A stretch of DNA of 64,000 nucleotides from Candidatus Pacearchaeota archaeon (GTDB taxonomy: Archaea; Nanobdellota; Nanobdellia; Pacearchaeales; DTIR01): positions 305,528 through 369,527 of the forward strand of contig JAGVXL010000001.1 in NCBI GenBank assembly GCA_018303805.1, in the 5' to 3' direction. Both the position numbers and the translations under genes were made by a program. Below, piece by piece: positions 37,065 through 59,877 of the stretch; positions within the stretch are counted from its first letter, which is position 1; each line of letters starts with the position of its first letter. Below the pieces are notes generated by a model. The model saw only the letters and a program-made list of their open reading frames with translations, did not search any database and was not told the origin of the DNA.

Positions 37065-39875
37065 ATGGTGAAGAAGACTATAATTGATGAAAAACCAGGG
37101 ACTGAAAAACAGCAAGAAGAAAATGAAAAGGGGGTTATTGACATAAGAAAAGAGAAATTTAAAGAGCTGTTTCTTAATAAGGGGCTGATATTTATTCTCG
37201 GTTTGATCATAATAATCCTAATAACCATAAATGTCAGGACAAGCAATATTTCTGGACTGAAAGATATAACAACAGGCAATTACACGCTTGCTCCTGACTT
37301 GGATCCATTCCTGTTTTTGAGATGGGCGAAATACATTGCTGTGCATGGCACAATAATGAACATAGATATAATGCGTTACTCTCCCTTAGGATACCACCCA
37401 AGGGCAGAAGCATTATTAACCTCATACATCATTGCATACCTCTACAAATTCCTTCATATTTTTTATCCAACAATCACAATTGAATTTGTTGCAGTGATAT
37501 ACTCCCCTATATTTTTCGCTCTGGCAACACTTTTCTTCTTCCTGTTTGTAAGAAGGCTATTTGTAAATTACCCCCTCCTAAAGAAAAATTTAATTGCCCT
37601 GCTTTCAACGCTCTTCTTTGTATTCATGCCATCATTGCTGCACAGGACAACTGGCGGAGTGCCGGAAAAAGAGGCTGCAGGAATAATGTTTGTTTTTCTT
37701 GCATTATACCTCTTTGTCTGCGCATTGCAAAGCAAGGATAAAAAGAATGCATTTATTATCGGATTAACAAGCGGTTTGGCAACAAGCCTGCTGAATATAA
37801 CCTGGGGGGGAGTTAATTTTGTTTTGTTAAGCATAGAGATAAGCATGCTGGCATACTTCTTTGTTGAGAGCATCTCAAAGAAGGAATTTCTCGCATATGC
37901 CGGCTGGATTACTGCGTTTACACTGTTTTCTGGTTTTATACCCTTTACAGCAATAAGATCGGGATATATAACGGGCTTATTAACCTCAACAATAACACAA
38001 GTAGCCTATTTCGTCTTTTTTGTGATATGCATCGACATGTTTGTCACTCCAAGAATTTACCAAAAAAGGAAAATAAAGATACCGAGAATAGCTTTCTCGT
38101 TACTTATATCCTTTATATCTGCTTTTCTATTACTAGTAATAACAAATCCCTCTGCAATTGCAAGTTATACAACTGGCTTGAAAACGCAACTGCTGCATCC
38201 TATAGGCACTGACCGCATCACATTAACTGTTGCAGAGAACAATCAGCCATATTTTGGCACCTGGAAAGGCACATTCACAATGAAATATTTCTGGCTTTTT
38301 ATGATTGCTGCTGTATTGCTGTTTTATGAGGCAATGCAAAAAATGAAAAAGAATGAAAGATATATCCTTTCAGCAGTTTATGCCTTATTCCTGATTTGCC
38401 TTGTATTCTCCAGATATTCCTCCAATTCAATTTTCAACGGAACAAGCTTCATAAGCCAGTTTGTATATTTCGGCGGATTTGCAGTCTTTATTTTAACATT
38501 CTTGGCAATATACTACAATGCGCACAAATCCGGAGAAATTGAAAAAATCAGGGGGATAAGCAAGGAATTTGTGCTTGTTCTTATAATGTTCTTTATTGCC
38601 ATGGTCTCTGCAAGGGGCGCGATAAGGCTGTTTTTCTTGCTTGCGCCAGTCACAACAATTCTTGTATCATTCATCAGCGTAGAATTAGTGGATAAAAGCA
38701 TTAAATCTTATAAAAGCAAGAAAGAATTGGCAACAATAATCTATGCAACCATTGCGCTGGGGATAATATTCTTAATACTCCTCCCATCATTCAATACTTT
38801 TTCCAACTCAACTATCAATGAGGCAAAATACACCCGGCCGGGATATTATGAGGTGTTATGGCAGAAGGCAATGGCATGGGTTAGAACTAACACACCTCAA
38901 AATGCTGTTTTCTCCCATTGGTGGGACTATGGATATTGGATACAAGCAATCGGTGAAAGGGCAACATTCTTGGATGGGGGAAACTCTTATGGCTACTGGG
39001 ATTACCAAATGGGCAGATATGTTCTAACAGGGCAAAATGAGCAGGAAGCATTAGAAGTGTTAAAAACACACAATGTTTCCTATCTCTTGATAGACCCTAC
39101 AGATATAGGAAAATATCCTGCGTACAGCAGCATAGGTTCTGATTTGGGGTATGACAGGTATAATTATATTCCAACTTTTATGCTGGATGAAAAACAAACC
39201 CAAGAAACAAGAGATGAGAGATTATTTTGGTATCAGGGCGGAGCTTTATTCAGCAAGGATTTCGTGTGGTATGACAAGAGCAGCAAGCAGCAATTCTTTT
39301 TTCCTGCACAAAATGAAGAGGCAATAATTGCAGGGGTGATATTGCCAGTACAGGAGTTGAATGCCAATGATACAATTCTCGCAAACTTGATACAGCCGGG
39401 CAATCTGCCAGTATTGATAAAGCAGCCAAGGGCAGTTGTTGTCTACAAAAGAACAACAAGAATAGACATCCCTCTGTGCTATCTATTCTATAACGGCTCA
39501 TATAGCTATGAAGACAACGGAGCATGCCTCAAGGCAGGTTTGTATGTAATACCCAAGATAGTGCCAAGTGGGGGGGGCTCCAGCATCATGCCAAACGGTG
39601 CTGCAATGTTCTTGAATGAAAGGGCAATGAGTGCCTTATGGGTTAAGCTTTATCTGCTTAATCAAGGCAAGAATTTTGAACTTGTGCATGTGGAATCCAG
39701 CCCGATTGTTGAACAGATGAACCAGCAAGGCGCGAAGTTGCCAGATTTTATCTATCTCGGGGATGTTTTTGGGCCTATTAAAATATGGAAAGTCAACTAC
39801 CCTGAAAATGTGACAATAAAGCCGGAATATCTCAATACATTATACCCCGATGTCAGATTGACAATAGCCAGATAG
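37065..39875 (+). CDS. aglB: oligosaccharyltransferase AglB (STT3 family)
   Basis: A 936-aa protein with a multi-TM N-terminal half, a WWDYGYW motif, and an Asp-containing first external loop (APDLDPFLFLRW). Confidence 0.9.
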   Translation: MVKKTIIDEKPGTEKQQEENEKGVIDIRKEKFKELFLNKGLIFILGLIIIILITINVRTSNISGLKDITTGNYTLAPDLDPFLFLRWAKYIAVHGTIMNIDIMRYSPLGYHPRAEALLTSYIIAYLYKFLHIFYPTITIEFVAVIYSPIFFALATLFFFLFVRRLFVNYPLLKKNLIALLSTLFFVFMPSLLHRTTGGVPEKEAAGIMFVFLALYLFVCALQSKDKKNAFIIGLTSGLATSLLNITWGGVNFVLLSIEISMLAYFFVESISKKEFLAYAGWITAFTLFSGFIPFTAIRSGYITGLLTSTITQVAYFVFFVICIDMFVTPRIYQKRKIKIPRIAFSLLISFISAFLLLVITNPSAIASYTTGLKTQLLHPIGTDRITLTVAENNQPYFGTWKGTFTMKYFWLFMIAAVLLFYEAMQKMKKNERYILSAVYALFLICLVFSRYSSNSIFNGTSFISQFVYFGGFAVFILTFLAIYYNAHKSGEIEKIRGISKEFVLVLIMFFIAMVSARGAIRLFFLLAPVTTILVSFISVELVDKSIKSYKSKKELATIIYATIALGIIFLILLPSFNTFSNSTINEAKYTRPGYYEVLWQKAMAWVRTNTPQNAVFSHWWDYGYWIQAIGERATFLDGGNSYGYWDYQMGRYVLTGQNEQEALEVLKTHNVSYLLIDPTDIGKYPAYSSIGSDLGYDRYNYIPTFMLDEKQTQETRDERLFWYQGGALFSKDFVWYDKSSKQQFFFPAQNEEAIIAGVILPVQELNANDTILANLIQPGNLPVLIKQPRAVVVYKRTTRIDIPLCYLFYNGSYSYEDNGACLKAGLYVIPKIVPSGGGSSIMPNGAAMFLNERAMSALWVKLYLLNQGKNFELVHVESSPIVEQMNQQGAKLPDFIYLGDVFGPIKIWKVNYPENVTIKPEYLNTLYPDVRLTIAR

Positions 39876-39919
39876 AAAATTTCACAAAAGATTTAAATCA
39901 TCAAAAGAGACTAATTTAA

Positions 39920-40915
39920 ATGAAATATCTTTACCTTATCCTTGGCATCATAAGTTTTGTTGTAACCTTATACTTGACTCCATGGGCTATAAGATACATG
40001 AAAAGGATAGGGGTTGTTGTAAAGGACCAAAATAAAAAGAAACAGCCATTAATTCCAATTTCTGGGGGATTGGCAGTTTTTGCAGGGATGTTCATTTCAA
40101 TAATGTTTATTACATTTGTTAAAACATTTGTATACAATTCAACAGCCGAGATAATCTTGCTGCTTGCAGCCACAATAGCTATAATGTTTATTACAATCGT
40201 GGGATTCATAGATGACTTGCTTATCAAGAGGAACAAGGAAAGCAGCGTTGGCTTAAGGCAGTGGCAGAAGCCATTGCTTACATTAAGTGCTGCGATTCCA
40301 TTAATGGTTGTCAATGCCGGAACGAGGATAGTAAATTTGCCTTTTTTAGGAAGGGCTGATATTGGCTTGCTTTATCCCCTGTTGCTGGTTCCTCTTGGTG
40401 TTGTGATTGCAGCGAACATGGTGAATATGCTTGCTGGCTTCAACGGCATGGAATCTGGAATGGGCATAATATACACTCTTTCTCTTGGCTTGTATTCCCT
40501 GTTTTATGGCACGCAGGTTGCGGCAATAATAGCCTTTGCAGCCTTGGGAAGCCTGGTTGCTTTCCACCTTTACAACAAATTCCCCGCAAAAATCCTGCCA
40601 GGGGACTCTTTAACCTACTTGCTTGGCGGCGTTATAGCAACAATAGGCATACTCGGCAACATTGAAAGGGCGGGGATAATAATATCAATTCCTTTTGCTG
40701 CCGAATTCTTCCTTAAAGCAAGAAGCAGATTCAAGGCGCAAAGCTATGGTTATGAAAAAAATGGCAGGATTCAGTCAAGATACAAAAAAATCTACTCCAT
40801 CCCCCACCTATTCACAAGAACTGGAAAATTTACAGAAAAACAAATCACATTCTTCATGATTTTGATTGAGCTTTTCTTTTGCATTCTCATATGGTTTCTG
40901 CCGATAAGCCAATGA
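39920..40915 (+). CDS. polyprenyl/dolichyl-phosphate HexNAc-1-phosphate transferase (MraY/WecA/GPT family, AglH-like)
   Basis: GFIDDL and NMVNMLAGFNGMESG motifs in a multi-TM protein. Confidence 0.8.
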   Translation: MKYLYLILGIISFVVTLYLTPWAIRYMKRIGVVVKDQNKKKQPLIPISGGLAVFAGMFISIMFITFVKTFVYNSTAEIILLLAATIAIMFITIVGFIDDLLIKRNKESSVGLRQWQKPLLTLSAAIPLMVVNAGTRIVNLPFLGRADIGLLYPLLLVPLGVVIAANMVNMLAGFNGMESGMGIIYTLSLGLYSLFYGTQVAAIIAFAALGSLVAFHLYNKFPAKILPGDSLTYLLGGVIATIGILGNIERAGIIISIPFAAEFFLKARSRFKAQSYGYEKNGRIQSRYKKIYSIPHLFTRTGKFTEKQITFFMILIELFFCILIWFLPISQ

Positions 40916-40974
40916 AATAAAGACAAAAATAAAAATTTTAGAAAAAGTTTTATTAAAAATAGAAATAAAGGAAA

Positions 40975-41970
40975 ATGAAAAACAAAAAAGATTTTGTTTC
41001 GATAATAGTTCCATGCCGGGATATAGATAAGTACACCAAAGAATGCATAAGGCACTGCAATAAGCTTAATTATGGGAATTATGAAATTTTGCTGCTGCCT
41101 GACAAGAAAAATGGGAAATTGCAGGGCATCAAAACAGAAAAACCGAGGGAATTGAGAATAATCGCAACAGGCAGCATTAAGCCGGGAGAGAAGAGGAACA
41201 TGGCAATGAAAAAAGCAAGGGGGGAGATTTATGCTTTTATTGATTCTGACGCTTACCCTGAAAAGAACTGGCTGAAAAATGCAGTAAGATATTTTTCCAA
41301 CATCAGGATAGGAATTGTTGGGGGGCCAAACTTAACTCCAAAGGCAGATAATTTCAGGCAGAAAATTTCTGGCATGCTGCTTGCAAACTGGTTATGTGCA
41401 GGGCCAAGAGCAAGCATAAGATACAGGGCTGCAAAAAAACAATTCACGCCGGAACTGCCAACATGCAATCTTCTTGTCAGGAAAGACGCTGTAAAGAATT
41501 TCAATCTCAAATTTAAGCCAGAACTGCTGACTGAAGAGGATTCAAAATTTTGCTTTGACATGGCAAAAAATGGCAAGAAAGTGCTATATGTCCCCGATGC
41601 TGTAGTGTATCATCATAGGAGAGAGGCATTTTTGCCGCACTTGAGGCAGATATGGATTTACGGGAGGGATGTTGCATTTCTCTTCAAAAAAGAAATTTCT
41701 CCTGTTATGCTCTATTATACCCTGCTCCCATTATTTGTTCTTGGCGTCATTGCAGGGGCAATCCTGTCATTTTTCAGCATCTTTATAAAAACAATGTATC
41801 TTGCATCAATCTTGCTTTATTTAGCAATAACACTTGCATCCAGCATAAAGAAAGATATTAAAACAACATTCATGCTTTTCTTGGGCATAATAGCAACGCA
41901 TTTTGCCTATGGACTGGGTTTTTTATACGGCTTGTTGAGCAAGAACAGGGCAGGATTGAATGTGAGGTAA
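40975..41970 (+). CDS. family 2 glycosyltransferase with C-terminal TM helices
   Basis: VSIIVPCRD start, FIDSDAYP (DxD motif), and a C-terminal hydrophobic region. Confidence 0.8.
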   Translation: MKNKKDFVSIIVPCRDIDKYTKECIRHCNKLNYGNYEILLLPDKKNGKLQGIKTEKPRELRIIATGSIKPGEKRNMAMKKARGEIYAFIDSDAYPEKNWLKNAVRYFSNIRIGIVGGPNLTPKADNFRQKISGMLLANWLCAGPRASIRYRAAKKQFTPELPTCNLLVRKDAVKNFNLKFKPELLTEEDSKFCFDMAKNGKKVLYVPDAVVYHHRREAFLPHLRQIWIYGRDVAFLFKKEISPVMLYYTLLPLFVLGVIAGAILSFFSIFIKTMYLASILLYLAITLASSIKKDIKTTFMLFLGIIATHFAYGLGFLYGLLSKNRAGLNVR

Positions 41971-41980
41971 AAATAAACTT

Positions 41981-42311
41981 TTGCGGAAGTTTAATCAAAA
42001 GATGGATTTTTTGAAAAGTTTCATTCAAGATTGCAGGTATTATGATTTAGAAAAAAGAGAAATTAAAACAATCTTGAAATATGTGAATTTAAAAAATAAA
42101 ACACTTTTGGATGCCGGGACGGGCATTGGCAGACTGGCTTTTCCTCTTTCTAAATATGCAAAAAGAATTGTAGCCATTGATAAAAATAAACAAAGATAAA
42201 AAAGAGAAATTAAAGAAAATAGTAAAAAAATACAAAAGGAATAAAAAGGTTAAAATCTCAGAAAGAATATTCTTTTATTTACTAGAACAAAAATGGCAAG
42301 AAAATTAGAAA
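41981..42311 (+). pseudogene. frameshifted, internally deleted class I SAM-methyltransferase remnant
   Basis: Motif I LLDAGTGIGRLAF and post-I IVAIDKN are followed by a stop inside an A-rich run. A shifted frame continues as KDKKEKLKKIVKKYKRNKKVKISERIFFYLLEQK. Total length is far below a functional methyltransferase. Confidence 0.5.
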
Positions 42312-42592
42312 AAAGTTTGGAAAATCAAAGATGCAGGATTGAGAGATTTGAAGTTGATAAAAGGGGTTATGCAAAAATGACTATAAAAACAAAATCTGGC
42401 GAGTATGGATTCCCATTAAAAAATGAAACAGCCAGAAAGTTATGGCTGGGGGATATCCTAACATGTAAATTAGGGGTATGTTCCAGCCCTGATTTCCTCG
42501 GCGATAGAGTTGAAGACATGAAAGCCGCAACTATGAGCTATGAAATTGCAGAGTTAAAAGATAAAAAAGGAAACATAATTTATAAAAAATGA
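42293..42592 (+). CDS. hypothetical 99-aa protein, ATGA-coupled to the downstream radical SAM gene
   Basis: A clean ORF with no family recognised. Its stop overlaps the radical SAM start at 42589-42592. Confidence 0.55.
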   Translation: MARKLEKSLENQRCRIERFEVDKRGYAKMTIKTKSGEYGFPLKNETARKLWLGDILTCKLGVCSSPDFLGDRVEDMKAATMSYEIAELKDKKGNIIYKK

Positions 42593-44046
42593 AAATCATG
42601 CTTGCCTATCCCCCGATAGAAAGCAACAAAGGCATTCCTCTCTTGAGCCAGAACAGGCAGTTCCAGTTCTTTCACAATCCAACTTATATTTTTCCTGTTG
42701 TGCCTGCAAGTGCTGCAACTTTGCTTCAAAGCAAGGGTTATGAAGTGCTATGGAAGGATGGGATAGCTGAAAATCTCAGCCAAGAGCAGTTTTACAAATA
42801 TTTTTCAGAGCAGAATCCTGATTTAATAGCAATAGAAACAAAAACTCCTGTTATAAAGCAGCAGTGGAAAATTGTTAATGAACTGAAAAAAATCAATCCT
42901 GATTGCAGGATTGTCCTGATGGGTGACCATGTTACAGCATTGCCTCAAGAATCATTAAAAAACAGCAATGCAGATTTTATTCTGCTTGGCGGGGACTATG
43001 ATTTTGCACTTGCTGAATTGTGCGATGCCCTTGAAAACAAAAAGAAAATTCCAAGGGGATTTACATACAGAAAAGGAAAAAAAATTATCTCAACAGGAAA
43101 GTTTCAATTGCAGCATAAATTAGATGAGCTTCCATTTATAGATAGAGAATTAACAAAATGGAAACTTTACCAGAGAGAATACAACATAAAAGGCAGGCCT
43201 TACACCTACATCATGTCTGCAAGAGACTGCCCCTGGCATTCTTGCAAGTTCTGCGCATGGCCTGTTTTGTTTCCAAAATTCAGGACAAGAAGCGTGAAAA
43301 ATGTCTTGGATGAGATAGAACTGCTTGTTGAGAAATATCATGTCAAGGAAATTTTTGATGATGCTGGAACATTTCCTGCCAATCCACCAGGCAAGTGGCT
43401 AGAAGATTTCTGCAAAGGCATGAGAAAAAGAAAGCTAAACGAGAAAATTGATTACTCTTGCAATATGCGTGCGGACTACCTTACTGAAAAAAATGCAAAA
43501 TTGATGTCAGAAGCTGGTTTCCGGCTTTTGAAAATGGGTTTGGAGAGTGCAAATCAATACACCCTGGACAGGATTGACAAAGGGATAAAAGTTGAGCAAA
43601 TCAGCCAGGCATGCAGGGATGCAAAAAAATATGGCTTGACAGTGCATCTGACAATGATTGTGGGGTATCCCTGGGAAACAAGGCAGGACGCATTAAATAC
43701 ATTGAAACTTGCAAAATTTCTCATGCAAAAAGGTTACGCAGATGTTCTGCAATCAACTGTGCTTATATCTTATCCAGGCACAGCATTATGGAAAGAGGCA
43801 ATGCAAAAAAAATGGTTTACAATAAATCCAGAAGATTATGAAAAATATGACATGTCCAAGCCGATATTGAAGACACCGATGCCTGAAGAGGAGGTTATGC
43901 AAATATGCAACAGCATATACCGGATTTTCCTAACACCCCAATATATATACCAAAGAATAAAATCCATAAGGGATTTTGACGACTTGTTGTTCATCCTGCG
44001 AGGGGCAAGGGCAGTTTTTGGGCATCTGCAGGATTTCTCAAGATAA
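42589..44046 (+). CDS. B12-binding-domain (class B) radical SAM enzyme with a CX4CX2C cluster motif
   Basis: N-terminal Rossmann-like B12-type domain (MKIMLAYPP..., DLIAIETKTP). Cluster motif ARDCPWHSCKFCAW at 43228-43254. Confidence 0.75.
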   Translation: MKIMLAYPPIESNKGIPLLSQNRQFQFFHNPTYIFPVVPASAATLLQSKGYEVLWKDGIAENLSQEQFYKYFSEQNPDLIAIETKTPVIKQQWKIVNELKKINPDCRIVLMGDHVTALPQESLKNSNADFILLGGDYDFALAELCDALENKKKIPRGFTYRKGKKIISTGKFQLQHKLDELPFIDRELTKWKLYQREYNIKGRPYTYIMSARDCPWHSCKFCAWPVLFPKFRTRSVKNVLDEIELLVEKYHVKEIFDDAGTFPANPPGKWLEDFCKGMRKRKLNEKIDYSCNMRADYLTEKNAKLMSEAGFRLLKMGLESANQYTLDRIDKGIKVEQISQACRDAKKYGLTVHLTMIVGYPWETRQDALNTLKLAKFLMQKGYADVLQSTVLISYPGTALWKEAMQKKWFTINPEDYEKYDMSKPILKTPMPEEEVMQICNSIYRIFLTPQYIYQRIKSIRDFDDLLFILRGARAVFGHLQDFSR

Positions 44047-44249
44047 TTCTGTAGAGACAATTGATTTCATTTATCAGATTATTTACAAAAATCTCAAAGT
44101 TTGATTCATAGGTTAAGAGGTTACAAACTTTTTCTCCACAATAAGTTATGCCTTTATCATGATTCTTTAAACACCTGCCCTCTTTGCATAAATAAAGATT
44201 ATCAAATTGCTCAAGCTTTTCTTTTTTGCACTTTTCTGCTCGCCTCTTG

Positions 44250-45074
44250 TCAATTACCCTTAATAATCCCATTTTCAGATAAAAAGTTTTTTACTGTGCT
44301 GAACTTATAACATTTTCTTTTTGCCCATCTGATGTAACTATCCAATTTGCCAGATAATATCCTTCCTGTATCCCTTTTTATGTACGCGGGCAATTTGAAA
44401 CCTGAAGAATTCAAATCAACAAACTCCCAAGGATGAAACAGCAGCATTACATACCTTGAATCCAGAAAACACCAATTTGTGCAGAATTTTGAATATGCCA
44501 GGCCAAGATTTCTGAAGGCAAACCAGAAAAGAGGCAGCCTTAATAAAGAAGTAACGGAAATAGGGACTTCAATCAGTTTTCCATGCTTGTGTATTTCCCT
44601 TTCTGTAAAAAAATTGTTATATCTTCCAGGTATGTAAGTTGGATGCAGTGAGGAGTCATATTTAATTCCAATGGTGGGCAGCAGTTTTATTTTTTTAATG
44701 TGGAATCGTGGAGCCCTAAAGCCAATAACATTCTTGCCAATAATTTTTTCTACAAGCTTTTTGCCCCTGCTTAATCTTTTTAATGCTAAATCTTCTTTCA
44801 TATGCCTGTAATCATCACTATGCATTAAACCATGCAGGGCTATTTCATGTTTTTTGCTTAATTGTTTTACCAGTTTCTTGTTTGCAAGGGCGAATTTTGC
44901 GGTAACAAAAAAAGTTGCTATAACTTGTTGTTTATTAAGAATTTTAAGCAAATTTTTCAAGCCATTTCTTGAAATTCCAATTTGTTCTTTGTCAGAAATT
45001 TCTTCATGATACTCAAGAGGCAAATCAAACTCCTCCAAATCAAATGTAAGCAGGATATTTTTTGTTTTTTTCAT
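44250..45074 (-). CDS. polysaccharide deacetylase-like (CE4/NodB-related) protein
   Basis: ILLTFDLEEFD N-terminal motif, HGLMHSD His pair, and GFRAPRF segment. Confidence 0.65.
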   Translation of the reverse strand: MKKTKNILLTFDLEEFDLPLEYHEEISDKEQIGISRNGLKNLLKILNKQQVIATFFVTAKFALANKKLVKQLSKKHEIALHGLMHSDDYRHMKEDLALKRLSRGKKLVEKIIGKNVIGFRAPRFHIKKIKLLPTIGIKYDSSLHPTYIPGRYNNFFTEREIHKHGKLIEVPISVTSLLRLPLFWFAFRNLGLAYSKFCTNWCFLDSRYVMLLFHPWEFVDLNSSGFKLPAYIKRDTGRILSGKLDSYIRWAKRKCYKFSTVKNFLSENGIIKGN

Positions 45075-45076
45075 TT

Positions 45077-46513
45077 TTAAATTCTTTCCAGATTATACTT
45101 GTTTATTGTGAATCTCCAGGCATTATCTATCTCTAGATTATATTTTGGCTTGTAATAAACCAAAAAAACAAGCAAGTCCCACAAAAAGATAATATTCTTC
45201 TTTTTCAAGCCCTCAATCAGATACCTCTTTATCTGCTCATTCCTTATTCCCCCCACAAAATTTTGAATCTGCTCTCTTGTTGCATATTTAGTTCTTGCAA
45301 CTGGTTTCGTGTACATCACATGGGAATCTTTAAATCCGCTTTCTTCTATCAGCCCCTCTTTTTCACATACCTCTTTTATTTCAGTGCATGGCAGCGGCAT
45401 TAATATGGGGAAAAGCTCGTAATCTGCGCCAGAATTTTTAGCCATTGCAAAACTTTCCCGCATCATCTCAATTGTTTCGTATGGCGCCCCGATTATAAAC
45501 TGCAGCCTCAAATTCAAGCCGTATTTCTTGATTATTCCGATTGCATCGTATATCTGCTCCCTGCTCATGTTCCTTTTGTATACAACATTTCTTATGTAAT
45601 CATTTCCCGCCTCAACGCCCATCCTCACCTCATAACAACCGGCATCTTTCATTGCTTTGATAATTTCTTCAGTAACAAGATTTGCCCTGACATTAACATT
45701 CCACTTTAATACCTTATCGTATCCTTTTTCCTTGTATTTCCTGCAAAATTCAAGAATATAGTTCCTGTCAAGAATGAATGTATCATCATAAAAAAATAGG
45801 TATCTCAAGCCCTTGCTGCGGTACTGCTTAATTCTCAGCCCTACTTCCTGCATAACATTGTCAACACTCCGGGATCTTACATATTTTCCCTCTAATTTTT
45901 TTCTTAAGGCATGATTGCTGCAATACGTGCAGTTATACGGGCATCCTCTTGCAGCCATTATAGGCAGGTGCCGGTTATTTATCAGAAAATATTTCTCAAG
46001 TTCAAAATCATCCCAATCAGGAAAGGGAAGTTCATCAAGATTCTCTGCAAGCCTTCTCGTTTTATTCTTGATTATTTTTCCATCCTTTTTATACCATATT
46101 CCTTCTATTCCCTTGGAATCAAGATTGTTATCCAGCAGTTCCTTTATTGTATACTCCCCTTCGCAGATGCAGACAATGTCTACCTGCTCATTTTTTATAA
46201 CCTCTTCTGGCATCAATATTGTATGAACCCCCCCGAACATTATTTTGATATTATAATTTTTCTTGACAAATGAAGCAATATCCAAAGCCTGACTGTAATT
46301 AAAACTTAATATGGAAATGCCTATCAAATCAGGCTTCTCTGCCTCTATTCTCTCGCTGAGATAATCCCGCCAATTCTTCCTATGAAATGTCAAGTCAACT
46401 ATCCTTGCCTTGTGCTTTGTTTTTTCATTTATGAATGATTTTAAAACAGCGAGAGACATTGTCGGGATTAGTATCTCTCCTTCTATATTTGGCTCTATCA
46501 GCAGAACTTTCAT
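45077..46513 (-). CDS. B12-binding-domain (class B) radical SAM enzyme
   Basis: N-terminal MKVLLIEPN...DLIGISILS B12-type domain. Canonical cluster motif ARGCPYNCTYCS. Confidence 0.8.
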   Translation of the reverse strand: MKVLLIEPNIEGEILIPTMSLAVLKSFINEKTKHKARIVDLTFHRKNWRDYLSERIEAEKPDLIGISILSFNYSQALDIASFVKKNYNIKIMFGGVHTILMPEEVIKNEQVDIVCICEGEYTIKELLDNNLDSKGIEGIWYKKDGKIIKNKTRRLAENLDELPFPDWDDFELEKYFLINNRHLPIMAARGCPYNCTYCSNHALRKKLEGKYVRSRSVDNVMQEVGLRIKQYRSKGLRYLFFYDDTFILDRNYILEFCRKYKEKGYDKVLKWNVNVRANLVTEEIIKAMKDAGCYEVRMGVEAGNDYIRNVVYKRNMSREQIYDAIGIIKKYGLNLRLQFIIGAPYETIEMMRESFAMAKNSGADYELFPILMPLPCTEIKEVCEKEGLIEESGFKDSHVMYTKPVARTKYATREQIQNFVGGIRNEQIKRYLIEGLKKKNIIFLWDLLVFLVYYKPKYNLEIDNAWRFTINKYNLERI

Positions 46514-46522
46514 TTTAACTTA

Positions 46523-47263
46523 TTAAGATGCCTTGCTCCATAGTTTAAGCATCCTCCAAAACATTCCCGGGATAAACTTGAGGCGGAAAGTGCTGAATGG
46601 GGATATCTTTGCAAGAGGCACATAAACTTCCTTGACAATAAAACCTTTTCTCTTAAGCTTGTAAAGCAGCTCAACATCAAAATCAAATCCTGTGCAGACA
46701 AAATTTTTGTCTATGGCATCAAACGCTTTCTTCTTCAGGAATTTGCATCCCGCCTGAGTGTCATGAAACCTCATCTGCAAAAGGAACAGTGTCAGAGCCT
46801 TCCAGCCGACTGCAAGAACTTTTCTTGTTAACGGCTCTGGAATTTTAAGAACATGCCTATCAAGCCATTTCGAAGCTATAACGCAATCATGCCTGTCAAG
46901 CTGCTTAAGCATGCCTGCAACAGCATTCAAATCAAAAACGCAGTCAGCATCCATGAAACCAATTATCCTGTATTTCGCAGATTTAAACCCCTTTAATATT
47001 GCATAGCCCTTGCCCCTCTCTTTTATGCTTACAACCCTGACATGCTTGTTCTGTCTAGCCGTTCTCCTCGCAAGTTGTTCAGTATTGTCGGTGCATGCAT
47101 TGCACACAACAATAATCTCATATTTTGCTGAGAGTTTGGAAAGAAAAATAGAATATTTTTTGATGCTTCTTGCTATCACCATACCAGAATTATGCGCAGG
47201 CACAACAAGTGAAATTCCCGGATTATTCTCCCTTCCCTTGAGCCCTTTCCCCGCCTTGTTCAT
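46523..47263 (-). CDS. GT2 polyprenyl/dolichyl-phosphate glycosyltransferase (Dpm1/GtrB-like)
   Basis: ISLVVPAHN start, FMDADCVFD (DxD motif), and a size of 246 aa typical of the Dpm1/GtrB group. Confidence 0.7.
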   Translation of the reverse strand: MNKAGKGLKGRENNPGISLVVPAHNSGMVIARSIKKYSIFLSKLSAKYEIIVVCNACTDNTEQLARRTARQNKHVRVVSIKERGKGYAILKGFKSAKYRIIGFMDADCVFDLNAVAGMLKQLDRHDCVIASKWLDRHVLKIPEPLTRKVLAVGWKALTLFLLQMRFHDTQAGCKFLKKKAFDAIDKNFVCTGFDFDVELLYKLKRKGFIVKEVYVPLAKISPFSTFRLKFIPGMFWRMLKLWSKAS

Positions 47264-47431
47264 TGCAAATCTAAAATCCTTTTATTTTTAAATATGCTTC
47301 TTAAACAAAAAGCTTTCTTTGAAAGAAACAAAAAGGTGCCTCCTGAATTAAACCATAAGCTTTTTATTCTCTTTTTTGCTTGCATCATAAACTTTTAGAA
47401 AAAGTTTAATCAAAAGGAGAAAAACTGAAAA

Positions 47432-48379
47432 ATGAAGCTGGACAAATTATTTCCGGTTATAGGCATACTGCTTTTTGCTTATATAGTCATAAGAATAAGC
47501 CCGGCTAAAATTTGGTTCAGCCTTGTTAATTCTGACTTTCGCTATATCCTATTAGCCTTATTGCTGTTTGTGCCTATCCCCCTGCTGCAGGCAGCCAAAT
47601 GGGGCTATATTCTCCAGAAACAGGGAATAAAAGTGAAATTCAAGAATTTGCTCAGATTGCAGCTTATAAGCATGTTTTATGGGGAAGTCACGCCAGGCAG
47701 GCTGGGGACATTAATAAAGATACCTTACTTATGCAAAGAAACAAAGAAGCCGGCTTCAGAATGCAGTTCAAGCGTTATCATCGACAGATTATTTGATTTA
47801 GTGTCTGTGGCGTTATTTGCCGCGCTCGGGGCAATGCTGGTATTAAGAAAATTCGCCGGTTTCTTCTATTTTTCCTTGGCGGTATTTTTCGGCTTGCTAA
47901 TCGCAATGTTTATTTTCACAAATAAAAAAACAAGCCAGATTATGCTGAGAATTATTTTCAGGTTTCTTGTCCCTGAAAAATTCAAGGAAAAAGCAAGGAT
48001 ATCATTTGACAGATTCTATGGAAATTTACCCCCATTAACCAAATTAATCCCGGCATTTTTGATTACACTGCTTGTCTGGTCTATAATTTATACCCAATCA
48101 TACCTGGTTGCCCTTGCTTTCTCGGTAAAAGTCCCTTATTTATACTTCATAACAACTTTTGCCATAGTCACTGTTATCAGCCTTGTTCCTATTACCCTCG
48201 CAGGGTTAGGCACAAGGGAAGCAACGCTTCTGACATTACTCAGTCCATATGCCCTTTTGCCTGAGAAGATTGTTGGATTTTCAATATTATTAAGTGTAAT
48301 CTCCATTATTATCTACTCACTCGCTGGTTTATGGTTCATATTCAAAATCAAAAAGAAAAAAATTGCAAGGAATAAATAA
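47432..48379 (+). CDS. flippase-like membrane protein (UPF0104 / LPG-synthase TM-domain family)
   Basis: A multi-TM protein with the TPGRLGTLIK and LAGLGTREA motifs typical of this family. Confidence 0.65.
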   Translation: MKLDKLFPVIGILLFAYIVIRISPAKIWFSLVNSDFRYILLALLLFVPIPLLQAAKWGYILQKQGIKVKFKNLLRLQLISMFYGEVTPGRLGTLIKIPYLCKETKKPASECSSSVIIDRLFDLVSVALFAALGAMLVLRKFAGFFYFSLAVFFGLLIAMFIFTNKKTSQIMLRIIFRFLVPEKFKEKARISFDRFYGNLPPLTKLIPAFLITLLVWSIIYTQSYLVALAFSVKVPYLYFITTFAIVTVISLVPITLAGLGTREATLLTLLSPYALLPEKIVGFSILLSVISIIIYSLAGLWFIFKIKKKKIARNK

Positions 48380-48388
48380 AAAACGAAG

Positions 48389-49222
48389 ATGATTAAAAAT
48401 AAAAGCAGAACAGGGAAACTCGTTTCGGTAATAGTGCCAACAAAAAATTCTGAGGCAGCAATAAAAAGATGCCTTGTTTCCATAAAAAACCAGACATACA
48501 GGCAAAGGGAGATAATTGTTATTGACAACAACAGCGCTGACAAAACAAAGGAAATTGCAAGAAAATATGCTCGAGTATACAATAAAGGGCCTGAAAGAAA
48601 TGCGCAAAGGAATTTTGGTGCAAAGATAGCTAAGGGGAATTATCTGTTTTTTGCTGATTCAGACATGGAATTGACGCCAAGAATAGTGGAGGAATGCGCC
48701 AGATTAAGCAGAAAATATGATGCAATAATAATAGAGGAAAATAATATCGGCTCTACATTCTGGGCTAGGTGCAGGACATTCGAGAAAAAAACATACATAG
48801 GAGACGAGGATATTGTTGCTGCAAGGTTCTTCAGAAAACAGGTTTTCAAGGAAGCGGGGGGTTATGATGAAAACCTCTTAGTGAATGAAGACATCTCCCT
48901 GCACCAGACAATCAAAAACAAGGGCTATAAGATTGGCAGGATAAAATCATTCATAAATCATTATGAAGATGACACATTTCTTGATGTTATCCGCAGTTCA
49001 TTTTTCTATGGCAAGTCCCTCCACAAGTTCATGAAAAAACACCCTGTTTACGGCATCAAATACAACACCCTTGCAAGATTCAAGGCCTATGCAAGGAACT
49101 GGAGATTATTCCTGAAAGAGCCAATCTATGGCATTGGCTCAATCATCAGAAAATTCCTAGAATATCTTTTTGCATTTTTAGGAATGATATATGCATTGCT
49201 CTTTGAGCGAGGCAAAAAATAA
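48389..49222 (+). CDS. family 2 glycosyltransferase
   Basis: VSVIVPTKNSE start, VIDNNSADKT segment, and FFADSDMEL (DxD motif). Confidence 0.8.
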   Translation: MIKNKSRTGKLVSVIVPTKNSEAAIKRCLVSIKNQTYRQREIIVIDNNSADKTKEIARKYARVYNKGPERNAQRNFGAKIAKGNYLFFADSDMELTPRIVEECARLSRKYDAIIIEENNIGSTFWARCRTFEKKTYIGDEDIVAARFFRKQVFKEAGGYDENLLVNEDISLHQTIKNKGYKIGRIKSFINHYEDDTFLDVIRSSFFYGKSLHKFMKKHPVYGIKYNTLARFKAYARNWRLFLKEPIYGIGSIIRKFLEYLFAFLGMIYALLFERGKK

Positions 49223-49348
49223 ACAAATTATTAAAATAATCCAAAAGCAAGAAAAAATAAGCACAAGTTAAAAGCAAAAAAAATAATATCCAAATTAATG
49301 GCACAACCTAAAAATGAAAAAGCAACCAAATAATCTCAAAACAAGAAA

Positions 49349-50419
49349 ATGAAAAAATATAACTCTATTTTGGCAGGGTTTTTGCATAATTATCCCTCCT
49401 ACCTTATTTTCTTTGTCACGGCAAGATGCAATTCAAAATGCAGGATGTGCTTCTACTGGAAGGAAATAGAAAAGGCAAAAAACAAGAAAGAACTGTCAAT
49501 AAAAGAAATAGAAAAAATAACAAAGCACTTTAAAACCCTGCCTTATGTTTCCCTGGGCGGAGGCGAGCCTTTCCTTAGGCAGGATATAGATAAAATATGC
49601 TGCTTATTTTACAAAAATTGCAATGCAAGATTCATTAATATCCCTACAAATGGCATTCTAACATCAACGATAAGCGCAAAAGCAAAGAACATTCTTGAAA
49701 AATGCCCTGAAGCGCAATTGAACATAGATTTGTCAATTGACGGCATCGGCAGATTGCATGACAAGATAAGGGGTGTGAAGGGCAATTTTGAGATGGCTAT
49801 GAAAACATATCAGGAACTTGACAAATTAAGAAAAAAATTCCCCAATCTTTCAATAAATGTCCTGACAGTATTTTCAACATACAATCAAGACAAAATATCA
49901 GAGATTATAGATTATATCAAAAGAAATCTTGATGTAAACAGCCACAGAATCGGGCTGGCAAGAACTGACAGCAGGGAGCAGAAAGCCAAGGAAGTTTCAA
50001 TACAGCAATACAAAAAATGCATTGATATCCTAAACAGGACAAAAAAGGCAAGCAGGGGATTTTTTGCAAGAATATTAAGAGGCGTATATGAAACATCTGC
50101 TGAAATAGCATATAAAACAGGAAAAAACAATAGGGCATGCCTGCAATGCGTGGCAGGAAAAAAACTTATTGTAATGAGTGAAGAAGGAAATATCTACCCT
50201 TGCGAGTTATTAAGCAAAAAGATAGGCAACATAAGGGATTATGATTATGATATCGGCAAGCTTCTTTCAAGCAAAACTGCCAAGGAAACAAGAAAATTCA
50301 TAAAAGAGACAAAATGCTTCTGCACCTGGGAGTGCGGCATAATGAACAGCCTGTTTTTCAACCCAAAATTTTATCCTAAAATTTTGAAAAATGCATTAAA
50401 ACAAGCAAAAACAAAATAG
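49349..50419 (+). CDS. radical SAM enzyme with a SPASM/twitch-like C-terminal Cys-rich domain
   Basis: Cluster motif ARCNSKCRMCFYW, the GGGEPFLRQD segment, and C-terminal cysteines (CLQCVAG...YPCELL...CFCTWECG). Confidence 0.75.
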   Translation: MKKYNSILAGFLHNYPSYLIFFVTARCNSKCRMCFYWKEIEKAKNKKELSIKEIEKITKHFKTLPYVSLGGGEPFLRQDIDKICCLFYKNCNARFINIPTNGILTSTISAKAKNILEKCPEAQLNIDLSIDGIGRLHDKIRGVKGNFEMAMKTYQELDKLRKKFPNLSINVLTVFSTYNQDKISEIIDYIKRNLDVNSHRIGLARTDSREQKAKEVSIQQYKKCIDILNRTKKASRGFFARILRGVYETSAEIAYKTGKNNRACLQCVAGKKLIVMSEEGNIYPCELLSKKIGNIRDYDYDIGKLLSSKTAKETRKFIKETKCFCTWECGIMNSLFFNPKFYPKILKNALKQAKTK

Positions 50420-52801: not shown

Positions 52802-52956
52802 TTTCCCATTCTCAAATCTTAGTTGAATTGATGAAAGCTAACAGACTATACGCAAGAATGGTCTTACCTCTTTTACTCATCTCTCCCTCTTTTCTCTTGT
52901 TTGATTGAGGATATTAATATTTAAAAGGTTTTGTGTGTTTAAATTTGGAAATAAAA

Positions 52957-59337: not shown

Positions 59338-59877
59338 TTATTTTTCATCTATTATTAGTTTTTCCATCTCTCTTGCAAATTCCTTTGCTCTTTGCAACGA
59401 GGTTTTTGCTTTGGATTTCTTCTCAAATTCAATAGTTTTATATTGAATTAATCCTCTCTTGCTTCTCTCAAAATCAAAGGACTCTATTATTTTATCGGCC
59501 TTTATTCCAGCTAGATTTAATGCTTCCTCTTTTGTTTCTTCATATTCTTCAATAAGGGATGTTCTTAGTTTTTTTCTTGCATAAACAATTAAGGCGTCTG
59601 AAGCCACTTTATGAACTATTTTATCCCCTACTTTATAGCCCAACTTTAATAGAATCGCGTTTGCATAATAGAACATAGCATAATATGAACAGACGATTGT
59701 CCATAACTCTGAGGTATCTTTCCGATGAACCTCCTCTGCAACTCGCAAACTTTCTTTTGCATTCCTCAAAAGAATATTTATAACATTTTTGTCTGGAGCG
59801 GTTTTTTTCAATAAGCATTCTGCTAAGTATGACTTTACGTTAGATTCTGCTTCTTTTATTCTTTTTTCATTCAGCAT
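59338..59877 (-). CDS. HEPN-like protein (putative partner of the upstream nucleotidyltransferase)
   Basis: An all-helical 179-aa protein. It has R-x5-H (RVAEEVH) and ERSKRGLIQY segments. It overlaps the MNT gene by 11 nt. Confidence 0.45.
   Translation of the reverse strand: MLNEKRIKEAESNVKSYLAECLLKKTAPDKNVINILLRNAKESLRVAEEVHRKDTSELWTIVCSYYAMFYYANAILLKLGYKVGDKIVHKVASDALIVYARKKLRTSLIEEYEETKEEALNLAGIKADKIIESFDFERSKRGLIQYKTIEFEKKSKAKTSLQRAKEFAREMEKLIIDEK

What the first reader, a model, noticed from the sequence alone, without database searches (positions are those of the whole stretch)
37065..50419. AglB-centred glycosylation island unusually rich in radical SAM enzymes
**Seen directly.** Within 13 kb lie:
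- AglB;
- a GPT-family HexNAc-1-P transferase;
- three GT2 enzymes, one of them Dpm1/GtrB-like;
- a UPF0104 flippase-like protein;
- a CE4-like deacetylase;
- two B12-domain (class B) radical SAM enzymes;
- one SPASM-type radical SAM enzyme.

**Established knowledge.** Class B radical SAM enzymes typically methylate unactivated carbon or phosphorus centres, or do other difficult C-C chemistry. Archaeal examples act on membrane lipids. They are not standard components of described Agl pathways.

**Inference.** The island may build a lipid-linked glycan carrying radical-SAM-installed modifications, such as C-methylated or otherwise rearranged sugars, destined for the sequon-saturated surface proteins in this window. 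Alternatively it may tailor the lipid carrier or scavenged membrane lipids.
Basis: partly seen in the sequence, partly recalled or inferred. Interest (0 to 1): 0.6.

Follow-up and report, generated by a model that had tools for sequence, protein, structure and literature searches.

The report
Radical-SAM-rich AglB glycosylation island
A tiny (575 kb) DPANN archaeon keeps three radical-SAM enzymes, two with vitamin-B12-type domains, inside the gene island around its protein-glycosylating enzyme AglB; related archaea have the same layout, which points to an undescribed radical modification of lipid-linked surface sugars.

Summary
**Observation: confirmed.** All eleven genes are intact and are of the stated kinds.

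**Island conservation.**
- The order AglB-GT4-GT2-rSAM-A, with a UPF0104 flippase-like gene nearby, recurs in all 10 contexts examined. An eleventh is split by a contig break.
- The conserved block reaches the GT-C gene at 57683-59287, beyond the finding's end.

**Genome-wide picture.**
- The genome has 16 radical SAM genes, 8 of them class B.
- 7 of the 8 class B genes lie in one 62-kb glycan super-island.
- No BtuC-type permease or corrinoid adenosyltransferase was found.

**Family placement.**
- None of the three radical SAM proteins reaches any curated family cut-off.
- rSAM-A has an invariant CX4CX2C motif. It groups with HpnJ, and its model best matches the sugar dehydratase AprD4.
- GT2 + CE4 deacetylase + class B rSAM + UPF0104 mirrors the bacterial hpnI-J-K-L set, by analogy only.
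- rSAM-B has 57-59% identical orthologues in bacterial sugar-nucleotide clusters.

**Best reading.** These enzymes do radical tailoring of lipid-linked (amino)sugars before flipping and transfer. The chemistry is unresolved.

**Prior work.** This scan found the same kind of island before on other DNA. I found no paper describing it.

The parts
37065..39875 (+). AglB/STT3 oligosaccharyltransferase (936 aa)
   Evidence: Pfam STT3. WWDYG at residue 619. Single-copy orthologue in 40 of 41 genomes of the order.
39920..40915 (+). GT4 / GPT-family HexNAc-1-P transferase (331 aa)
   Evidence: Pfam Glycos_transf_4, E 1e-30. It follows AglB in all contexts.
40975..41970 (+). GT2 'GT2a' with a C-terminal membrane tail (331 aa)
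   Evidence: Pfam GT2. Orthologues at 46-58% identity sit between GT4 and rSAM-A in G002, G003, G004 and G030; in G001 the 58% orthologue follows GT4 up to the contig break.
42293..42592 (+). 99-aa ORF whose stop overlaps the rSAM-A start (ATGA)
   Evidence: No family hit. Conserved only in the same-genus genome G001, 74% over 88 aa. Absent from the GT2a/rSAM-A junction in G002 and G003.
42589..44046 (+). rSAM-A: class B radical SAM with a CX4CX2C cluster motif (485 aa)
   Evidence: B12-binding + Radical_SAM. Best NCBIfam hit is HpnJ, 201 bits against a cut-off of 577.6. More than 120 orthologue clusters at 58% identity or more, all named ones DPANN. C214/C219/C222 are invariant in 40 sequences. 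Groups with HpnJ in the tree. AF2 pLDDT 90.6; top fold match AprD4.
44250..45074 (-). CE4 polysaccharide deacetylase (274 aa)
   Evidence: Pfam Polysacc_deac_1. Best NCBIfam hit is the XrtA-system deacetylase, below cut-off. The GT2b-CE4 pair is conserved in G001, G003, G004 and G030.
45077..46513 (-). rSAM-B: class B radical SAM, CX3CX2C (478 aa), lying inside the GT2b-CE4 operon
   Evidence: More than 100 orthologue clusters at 56-73% identity, including Desulfobacula (57%) and Brocadiaceae (59%). It is 28% identical to rSAM-A.
46523..47263 (-). GT2 'GT2b', Dpm1-like catalytic domain (246 aa)
   Evidence: Pfam GT2, E 2e-21. PDB match to dolichol-P-mannose synthase 5mlz.
47432..48379 (+). UPF0104 / LPG_synthase_TM flippase-like membrane protein (315 aa)
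   Evidence: Pfam E 2.5e-43 and TIGR00374. Present next to the rSAM genes in all archaeal contexts, and next to the rSAM-B orthologue in Brocadiaceae.
48389..49222 (+). GT2 'GT2c' (277 aa)
   Evidence: Pfam GT2, E 2.7e-24.
49349..50419 (+). Radical SAM with a SPASM-like Cys-rich C-terminus (356 aa)
   Evidence: Radical_SAM E 3e-16; SPASM 17.2 bits, below the cut-off. CX3CX2C at residues 27-34. Best relative among the loci is 34% identical, in G003, so this element is variable.
52933..54165 (+). Conserved island member 'NT410': Pol-beta-fold nucleotidyltransferase with a helical domain (outside the finding)
   Evidence: No Pfam or NCBIfam hit. Orthologues follow UPF0104 in all contexts except G004 (locus ends before it) and G002 (contig end). 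AF2 pLDDT 92.8. Top fold matches are the aminoglycoside nucleotidyltransferases AAD(9) and ANT(3'')(9).
55055..56152 (+). Phosphodiest (alkaline-phosphatase superfamily) protein, a conserved island member
   Evidence: Pfam E 8.6e-12. Orthologues occur in the islands of relatives.
57683..59287 (-). GT-C glycosyltransferase (PMT_2), the conserved far end of the island core
   Evidence: Pfam PMT_2, E 6e-18. Orthologues at 30-46% identity in L023, L025, L026, G001, G003 and G030.

Best explanation
This is a conserved AglB-anchored glycan-assembly island of a Pacearchaeota-type DPANN archaeon. Uncharacterised class B radical SAM enzymes in it most likely act as tailoring enzymes for membrane-anchored (lipid-linked) sugars.

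**Proposed sequence (inferred).**
1. On the cytoplasmic face, the GT4 enzyme and a GT2 enzyme put HexNAc or other sugars on a polyprenyl/dolichyl phosphate. The Dpm1-like GT2b makes a lipid-P-HexNAc.
2. The CE4 enzyme removes the N-acetyl group.
3. rSAM-A (HpnJ-like, CX4CX2C) and rSAM-B use a 5'-deoxyadenosyl radical to alter the lipid-linked (amino)sugar. Possible reactions are ring contraction, C-methylation and deoxygenation.
4. The UPF0104 protein flips the product.
5. AglB, or the GT-C (PMT_2) enzyme, transfers it to the sequon-rich surface proteins or to their glycans.

**Shown:** gene identities, conserved synteny, family relationships and fold.

**Inferred:** substrate, order of steps, chemistry and cobalamin use.
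For: **Gene content.** Domains confirmed.

**Synteny.**
- rSAM-A orthologues (47-84% identity) always follow AglB-GT4-GT2 and sit beside UPF0104. Ten contexts show this: G000, G002, G003, G004, G030, L023, L025, L026, L043 and L044.
- G001 has the same parts split over a contig break.
- Class B rSAM genes lie 1-15 kb from aglB in 10 of 11 relatives with both on one contig.

**HpnJ relationship.**
- rSAM-A's best curated family is HpnJ.
- Its clade groups with a bona fide HpnJ and a Lawsonia glycan-cluster homologue (SH-aLRT 98).
- A real hpn locus reads hpnI(GT2)-hpnJ-hpnK(deacetylase)-LPG_synthase-domain gene. The same four component types lie in window 42589-48379 and in G001, G003, G004 and G030.
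- HpnJ co-clusters with MoeK5 and Fom3 in a published similarity network (PMC9204698).

**Sugar-level evidence.**
- rSAM-B orthologues at 57-59% identity in Desulfobacula and Brocadiaceae sit among NTP-transferase, GHMP kinase, DegT, SDR, methyltransferase and UPF0104 genes.
- rSAM-A homologues on Lawsonia and Solidesulfovibrio plasmids sit among GT2, GalE, SIS, HAD, epimerase and acyltransferase genes.
- The AF2 model of rSAM-A (pLDDT 90.6) best matches the aminosugar diol-dehydratase AprD4.

**Carrier lipid.** The genome keeps a cis-prenyltransferase.
Against: - There is no biochemical evidence, and no characterised close homologue. All NCBIfam scores are far below cut-off.
- The tree has only two characterised references, HpnJ and BchE, so 'sister to HpnJ' is a limited statement.
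- GT2b is not HpnI-like (no BLAST hit). CE4 is a different fold family from HpnK. The UPF0104 protein does not match the HpnL model. The hpn parallel is therefore analogy, not homology.
- CE4 is absent from the more distant islands L023, L025, L026, L043 and L044. rSAM-B lies between GT2b and CE4 only in this genome.
- No BtuC-type permease, PduO-type or CobA-type gene was found, so cobalamin supply is unexplained.
Confidence: 0.6

Rival explanations
1. The class B enzymes act on soluble nucleotide-sugar precursors, as GenK, AprD4 and DesII act on free aminoglycoside or NDP-sugar intermediates. The glycosyltransferases then use the modified NDP-sugar, and the lipid-linked stage is not the substrate.
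For: - The bacterial orthologue clusters are dominated by NDP-sugar enzymes: NTP_transferase, GHMP kinase, DegT and SDR.
- AprD4 is the top sequence and fold match in the PDB.
- The second cluster in this genome puts class B rSAM genes beside NeuB, a CMP-transferase-like gene, PIG-L and UXS.
Against: - rSAM-A always sits directly after a GT2 and beside the UPF0104 membrane protein, not beside NDP-sugar genes.
- The closest characterised family, HpnJ, acts on a membrane-anchored sugar. MoeK5, its published network neighbour, does so too, from my own knowledge.
- This genome lacks the heptose-pathway genes that accompany the bacterial clusters.
Confidence: 0.2
2. The radical SAM enzymes modify the lipid, not the sugar. 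The target would be the dolichol-type carrier or membrane lipids scavenged from a host, for example by methylation, cyclisation or cross-linking of isoprenoid chains, as done by archaeal GDGT-modifying radical SAM enzymes or HpnP/HpnR.
For: - Characterised archaeal and hopanoid class B or related rSAM enzymes act on isoprenoid lipids (review PMC13459092).
- The genes lie next to a lipid-flippase-like protein.
- The genome has a cis-prenyltransferase but no trans-polyprenyl synthase, so it depends on imported isoprenoid precursors.
- NCBIfam lists weak hits to the ladderane-lipid rSAM and to HpnR.
Against: - rSAM-B is 57-59% identical to proteins of Desulfobacula and Brocadiaceae, whose lipids differ from archaeal ones, and these lie in sugar-nucleotide clusters.
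- Scores to Tes, HpnR and the ladderane family are far below cut-off, and lower than the score to HpnJ.
- Four to eight divergent paralogues per genome, with content changing even within a genus, is the pattern of glycan diversification, not of core lipid synthesis.
Confidence: 0.12
3. The enzymes modify proteins or peptides: residues of the surface glycoproteins, or a small precursor such as the 99-aa ORF. This would resemble the methyl-coenzyme M reductase methylases or RiPP maturases. Their placement beside glycosylation genes would then reflect a shared target, not shared chemistry.
For: - The MCR glutamine methylase MgmA (9ccb) is among the best PDB matches.
- NCBIfam gives sub-threshold hits to RiPP C-methyltransferases and to ApyD.
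- A 99-aa ORF is translationally coupled to rSAM-A.
- SPASM-type enzymes are often peptide maturases.
Against: - The 99-aa ORF is conserved only within the genus, and is missing from the GT2a/rSAM-A junction in G002 and G003.
- None of the 10 contexts carries protease, transporter or precursor-peptide genes typical of RiPP clusters.
- The constant neighbours are glycosyltransferases, a flippase-like protein and a GT-C enzyme.
Confidence: 0.06

Closest known systems
HpnI-HpnJ-HpnK-HpnL module of bacterial hopanoid side-chain biosynthesis (bacteriohopanetetrol cyclitol ether)
   Same: - The component set is the same: a GT2 that puts GlcNAc on a membrane lipid, a deacetylase, a class B radical SAM enzyme and a UPF0104/LPG_synthase-domain membrane protein. 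This was verified in a real hpn locus.
- HpnJ is the best curated family hit for both class B proteins.
- HpnJ groups with the rSAM-A clade in the tree.
   Different: - Scores are far below the HpnJ cut-off: 201 and 158 bits against 577.6.
- GT2b shows no specific similarity to HpnI.
- The deacetylase is CE4, not the HpnK family (recalled from memory as YdjC-type).
- UPF0104 does not match the HpnL model.
- The organism is an archaeon, the genes are linked to AglB, GT4 and GT-C, and the acceptor cannot be assumed to be a hopanoid.
- rSAM-A has CX4CX2C, whereas HpnJ has CX3CX2C.
Sugar-tailoring class B / B12-domain radical SAM enzymes of antibiotic pathways (AprD4, GenK, MoeK5, Fom3)
   Same: - The two-domain fold is the same. 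AprD4 is the top PDB match by sequence and by fold.
- These enzymes act on aminosugars or lipid-linked sugars.
- HpnJ, MoeK5 and Fom3 co-cluster in a published similarity network (PMC9204698).
   Different: - Identity to AprD4 in the structural alignment is only about 16%.
- The AprD4 NCBIfam score is 55-85 bits against a cut-off of 500.
- Those enzymes serve secondary metabolism in actinomycetes, not protein glycosylation or cell-surface glycans.
- GenK, MoeK5 and Fom3 sequences could not be fetched here, so no direct comparison was made.
Archaeal AglB-dependent N-glycosylation (agl) clusters of Haloferax, Methanococcus and Sulfolobus
   Same: AglB with WWDYG, a GT4 initiating enzyme and several GT2 enzymes are clustered. 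The likely targets are sequon-rich surface proteins.
   Different: - From my own knowledge, the described agl clusters contain no class B radical SAM enzymes. No paper in the held library pairs AglB with radical SAM.
- Here up to seven class B genes follow aglB within 62 kb.
Polyprenyl-phosphate sugar routes with a GT-C end enzyme (ArnC-ArnD-ArnE/F-ArnT; Dpm1/PMT)
   Same: The parts match: a Dpm1/ArnC-like GT2, a CE4 deacylase like ArnD, a flippase-like membrane protein, and a GT-C (PMT_2) enzyme at 57683-59287.
   Different: - No radical SAM step exists in those routes.
- Similarity to ArnC is weak (27.8 bits against a cut-off of 529).
- The flippase-like protein belongs to a different family from ArnE/F.

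Membership tests
HpnJ (TIGR03471 equivalog) | Score at or above the curated cut-off of 577.6 bits | tested here: not met
   rSAM-A scores 201.3 bits and rSAM-B 157.8 bits. The best paralogue in the genome scores 257.6 bits.
HpnJ (TIGR03471 equivalog) | Genomic association with hpnI, hpnK and hpnL homologues and hopanoid synthesis | tested here: not met
   Analogous component types are present, but GT2b has no BLAST hit to HpnI, CE4 is a different family from HpnK, and there is no HpnL-model match at E<=1. Squalene-hopene cyclase was not searched for.
Class B (cobalamin-domain) radical SAM enzymes | N-terminal B12-binding domain (PF02310) plus a Radical_SAM core (PF04055), both above the Pfam cut-offs | tested here: met
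   rSAM-A scores 34.6 and 70.0 bits. rSAM-B scores 58.4 and 74.2 bits.
Class B (cobalamin-domain) radical SAM enzymes | CX3CX2C cluster motif | tested here: inconclusive
   rSAM-B has CPYNCTYC. rSAM-A has CX4CX2C (CPWHSCKFC), which is invariant across 40 orthologues. This is a conserved variant, not a defect.
Class B (cobalamin-domain) radical SAM enzymes | Two-domain fold like solved members | tested here: met
   The AF2 model has pLDDT 90.6. Foldseek matches AprD4 (TM 0.74), then TsrM, MgmA, OxsB, CysS and TokK, all at E<=1e-14.
Class B (cobalamin-domain) radical SAM enzymes | Binds and uses cobalamin | not testable with these tools
   AprD4, the closest structure, is reported not to use cobalamin (from my own knowledge). 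No FecCD/BtuC, PduO or CobA genes are in the genome.
AglB / STT3 oligosaccharyltransferase | STT3 domain and the WWDYG catalytic motif | tested here: met
   Pfam STT3 scores 38.2 bits against a cut-off of 24.5. WWDYG is at residue 619 and DLD at residue 78. Orthologues occur in 40 of 41 genomes of the order.
AglB / STT3 oligosaccharyltransferase | NCBIfam archaeo_STT3 (TIGR04154) cut-off of 450 bits | tested here: not met
   It scores 86.3 bits. That model describes the archaeosortase-A-associated subfamily, so this is a different AglB lineage.
SPASM-domain radical SAM enzymes | SPASM domain (PF13186) above its cut-off | tested here: inconclusive
   It scores 17.2 bits against a cut-off of 21.5. 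The C-terminal Cys pattern CLQC...C...CFCTWEC is present. All SPASM-type NCBIfam families score far below cut-off.
Dpm1/GtrB/ArnC-type polyprenyl-phosphate glycosyltransferases (for GT2b) | Specific similarity to characterised members | tested here: inconclusive
   The PDB match to Pyrococcus DPMS 5mlz covers residues 17-205, E 9e-7. NCBIfam hits to AglJ, the Dol-P hexose transferase, ArnC and PpgS are all far below cut-off.

The most novel reading that the evidence does not exclude
These DPANN archaea decorate their N-glycans, or a second lipid-linked sugar delivered by the GT-C enzyme, with carbocyclic (cyclitol-like), C-branched or deoxygenated aminosugars. A radiation of at least eight class B radical SAM orthogroups would make them. 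That would be a sugar chemistry not known in any protein glycosylation system. With eight B12-domain enzymes and no recognisable cobalamin uptake or processing genes in 575 kb, the cells would also have to obtain cobalamin from a host by an unknown route, or run these enzymes without it.
Probability: 0.25. Interest if true: 0.8.

Novelty: new variant of a known kind. Interest (0 to 1): 0.6.

Why it matters
**Chemistry.** Archaeal N-glycosylation and class B radical SAM chemistry are each well studied, but I found no described link between them. A conserved island that welds them together predicts unknown sugar structures on the surface of DPANN archaea. That surface mediates attachment to host cells.

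**Experimental targets.** The work defines concrete families to express:
- rSAM-A, which has a conserved CX4CX2C motif and more than 120 orthologue clusters.
- rSAM-B, which is shared with sulfate reducers and anammox bacteria.

**Cofactor supply.** A 575-kb genome spends about 2% of its DNA on eight B12-domain enzymes while lacking recognisable cobalamin import. This bears on what these symbionts take from their hosts.

Tried and rejected
- **Curated family membership.** All NCBIfam equivalogs (HpnJ, BchE, PhpK, ladderane, ApyD, MJ_1487, BzaD, HpnR, Mmp10-type, ArsL, AprD4, TsrM, KedN5, Tes, AhbD, NirJ, MoaA and others) score far below cut-off. Membership in any of them is rejected.
- **GT2b-rSAM-B-CE4 as a conserved three-gene operon.** Rejected. 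In G001, G003 and G004 the GT2b-CE4 pair is adjacent without rSAM-B. In more distant islands rSAM-B sits beside the Phosphodiest and methyltransferase genes instead.
- **Heptose as the common substrate.** GHMP kinase, SIS, HAD, HldE-like and GT9 genes accompany many homologous clusters. This genome has none of them, so the idea is not general.
- **HpnL membership of the UPF0104 protein.** No match at E<=1.
- **The 99-aa ORF as a conserved partner of rSAM-A.** It is conserved only within the genus.
- **The decayed methyltransferase at 41981-42311 as a remnant of the 222-224-aa methyltransferase next to GT2b in G003 and G004.** No similarity found.
- **NT410 by sequence.** No Pfam, NCBIfam or PDB sequence match. 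Only the fold search gave a lead.
- **Literature.** Six searches found no paper on this island. The methylated anammox S-layer O-glycan (PMC5088730) is only a loose lead for the Brocadiaceae homologue.
- **Thermoplasmatales orthologue.** Its context was uninformative.

Full report
**1. What is in the sequence**

ORF listing with Pfam and NCBIfam confirms every item of the finding.

| Coordinates | Strand | Product | Evidence |
|---|---|---|---|
| 37065-39875 | + | STT3/AglB | WWDYG at 619, DLD at 78 |
| 39920-40915 | + | GT4/GPT enzyme | Pfam |
| 40975-41970 | + | GT2a | Pfam |
| 42589-44046 | + | B12-binding + Radical_SAM protein, 'rSAM-A' | Cluster motif CPWHSCKFC, i.e. CX4CX2C |
| 46523-47263 | - | GT2b, first gene of a minus-strand operon | Catalytic domain matches Pyrococcus Dol-P-mannose synthase |
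| 45077-46513 | - | 'rSAM-B', second gene of that operon | Cluster motif CPYNCTYC |
| 44250-45074 | - | CE4 deacetylase, third gene of that operon | Metal-site motifs intact |
| 47432-48379 | + | UPF0104/LPG_synthase_TM protein | Transcribed divergently from the operon |
| 48389-49222 | + | GT2c | Pfam |
| 49349-50419 | + | Radical SAM protein with a Cys-rich C-terminus | SPASM hit just under the Pfam cut-off |

- rSAM-A and rSAM-B are only 28% identical.
One has 212 N-X-S/T sites in 2656 aa, ten times the genome mean.

**2. Genome context**

- The window lies in a single 575,132-bp contig.
- That genome has 16 radical SAM genes, 8 of them with a B12-binding domain.
- Seven of the eight class B genes, and 9 of all 16, lie in the 62.5 kb that starts at aglB (P about 1e-6 and 1e-5 if placement were independent).
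- The stretch just past the window end holds these genes:
  - GT1 enzymes, a FemAB-like gene, a second Dpm1-like GT2 and four class B genes;
  - a methyltransferase and a GT-C-like protein;
  - NeuB, a CMP-transferase-like gene, a second SPASM enzyme, an ATP-grasp enzyme, DUF218 and PIG-L;
  - a further class B gene, UXS and a Wzx-like flippase.
- The finding is therefore the aglB-proximal end of a much larger glycan super-island.
- Base composition of the island is like the rest of the genome.

**3. Conservation**

*AglB and class B genes across the order.*
- AglB is single-copy in 40 of 41 genomes of the order.
- Class B homologues (E<=1e-20) occur in only 12 of those 41. These include all five genomes of the window's own family, with 4-8 copies each.
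- Where both genes are on one contig, the nearest class B gene is 1-15 kb from aglB in 10 of 11 genomes.

*rSAM-A.*
- It has more than 120 orthologue clusters at 58% identity or more. All named ones are Pacearchaeota, Nanoarchaeota or Micrarchaeota.
- In every context read, the order is AglB-GT4-(GT2)-GT2-rSAM-A with UPF0104 next to it. The contexts are G002, G003, G004, G030, L023, L025, L026, L043 and L044, plus this window.
- Further along come a ~380-430-aa protein with no family hit (window 52933-54165), a Phosphodiest protein, one to three more class B genes, a small methyltransferase and a GT-C (PMT_2) enzyme (window 57683-59287). G002 and G004 were read too short to show these.
- The conserved block thus extends beyond the finding's end.
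- The CX4CX2C motif is invariant in 40 orthologues, as are C275, C291, C342 and C440.

*The GT2b-CE4 pair.*
- It is adjacent to rSAM-A in G001, G003, G004 and G030.
- rSAM-B lies between GT2b and CE4 only in this genome.
- Four paralogues of the second cluster have 1:1 orthologues in the same-genus genome G001. rSAM-B does not, so island content turns over quickly.

**4. Family placement**

- All NCBIfam hits are far below cut-off.
- The best hit for both class B proteins is HpnJ (201 and 158 bits against 577.6), followed by BchE, ApyD and PhpK.
- I built a 47-sequence tree with a bona fide HpnJ (fetched from a Mycetohabitans megaplasmid) and a BchE.
  - The rSAM-A clade (SH-aLRT 100) groups with HpnJ and a Lawsonia plasmid homologue (SH-aLRT 98).
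  - rSAM-B forms a separate clade with Desulfobacula and Brocadiaceae proteins (SH-aLRT 100).
  - With only two characterised references, this placement is limited.
- The AF2 model of rSAM-A is confident (pLDDT 90.6).
- It matches AprD4 best (TM 0.74), then TsrM, MgmA, OxsB, CysS and TokK.
- Sequence searches of the PDB also gave AprD4 and 9ccb (MgmA) as the top two for both proteins, in opposite order.

**5. What it works like**

*The hpn parallel.*
- The real hpn locus reads hpnI (GT2), hpnJ (class B rSAM), hpnK (deacetylase), then an LPG_synthase-domain gene.
- Reviews describe the pathway as GlcNAc transfer to the lipid, deacetylation, then a proposed radical ring contraction to a cyclitol ether (PMC13459092; PMC9204698).
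- The same four component types lie within window 42589-48379.
- This is analogy, not homology. GT2b is not HpnI-like, CE4 is another family than HpnK, and the UPF0104 protein does not match the HpnL model.

*A second parallel.* The Arn/Dpm1-type route has a polyprenyl-P sugar synthase, a CE4 deacylase, a flippase and a GT-C enzyme.

*Bacterial relatives point to sugar-level chemistry.*
- rSAM-B orthologues at 57-59% identity sit among NTP-transferase, GHMP kinase, DegT, SDR, methyltransferase, UPF0104 and further radical SAM genes in Desulfobacula and Brocadiaceae.
- rSAM-A homologues sit in glycan clusters on Lawsonia and Solidesulfovibrio plasmids.
- Heptose-pathway genes often accompany these clusters but are absent from this genome.

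*The unknown conserved protein (window 52933-54165).*
- It has a Pol-beta nucleotidyltransferase signature.
- Its confident model (pLDDT 92.8) best matches aminoglycoside O-nucleotidyltransferases, at modest TM scores.

**6. Most likely mechanism**

- Shown: gene identities, linkage, conservation, fold and nearest families.
- Inferred: GT4 and GT2 enzymes build lipid-linked sugars on the cytoplasmic face. CE4 de-N-acetylates a HexNAc. The class B enzymes alter the lipid-linked (amino)sugar by radical chemistry. UPF0104 flips it. AglB or the GT-C enzyme transfers it outward.
- The chemistry cannot be decided from sequence. Candidates are ring contraction as proposed for HpnJ, C-methylation as in MoeK5 or GenK, and deoxygenation as in AprD4.
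- I put about 0.6 on lipid-linked sugar tailoring, 0.2 on nucleotide-sugar tailoring, 0.12 on lipid modification and 0.06 on protein or peptide modification.

**7. Cofactor and carrier**

- No FecCD/BtuC permease, PduO-type or CobA-type adenosyltransferase was found. The controls responded in most reference genomes.
- Other transporter types were not tested.
- A cis-prenyltransferase is present but no trans-polyprenyl synthase. The carrier lipid can be elongated in-house, but only from imported precursors.

**8. Novelty**

- Six literature searches found no description of this island.
- This scan has noted the same kind of island on other DNA many times, with similar conclusions. I reached the HpnIJKL reading before seeing those notes and tested it here.
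- I class the finding as a new variant of a known kind: an Agl-type glycosylation cluster with new radical SAM tailoring families.

Noticed in passing
L045:1905-4724 (G002 contig C18, minus strand): A 939-aa class B radical SAM gene in a same-family genome carries an intein. Intein_splicing, a LAGLIDADG homing endonuclease and an HTH lie between the B12-binding domain and the radical SAM core.
   Followed up: partly
window 52933-54165: This 410-aa protein has no Pfam, NCBIfam or PDB sequence hit, but about 900 representative homologues. It has a Pol-beta nucleotidyltransferase signature (GGxGxGEGS...NDYD). Its confident AF2 model best matches aminoglycoside O-nucleotidyltransferases. It is a constant member of the island, next to UPF0104 and the Phosphodiest protein.
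   Followed up: partly
whole genome (G000): There are eight B12-domain radical SAM genes in 575 kb, but no FecCD/BtuC permease and no PduO- or CobA-type corrinoid adenosyltransferase.
   Followed up: partly
genome 433094-433759 (outside the window): A cis-prenyltransferase (UppS-type) is present, while no trans-polyprenyl synthase is found. The glycan carrier lipid seems to be elongated from imported isoprenoid precursors.
   Followed up: no
window 59338-60439, minus strand: A HEPN / minimal nucleotidyltransferase (toxin-antitoxin-like) gene pair lies between the GT-C gene and the NTP-transferase genes of the island.
   Followed up: no
window 42589-44046 and alignment A2: Besides the CX4CX2C cysteines, four further cysteines (C275, C291, C342, C440) are invariant in 40 rSAM-A orthologues. 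HpnJ shares only C291. They may form an auxiliary cluster.
   Followed up: no
window 42293-42592; L041:2-265: The 99-aa ORF coupled to rSAM-A is conserved (74% over 88 aa) in the same-genus genome at a contig start next to GT2a. This suggests that contigs C3 and C7 of that assembly join here. The ORF is absent from other relatives.
   Followed up: yes
L044:9001-11545: In a Pacearchaeota genome from a public assembly, a SPASM radical SAM gene overlaps the end of the rSAM-A orthologue by 14 bases. This suggests a coupled class B/SPASM pair. It is only 24% identical to the window's SPASM-like gene.
   Followed up: partly
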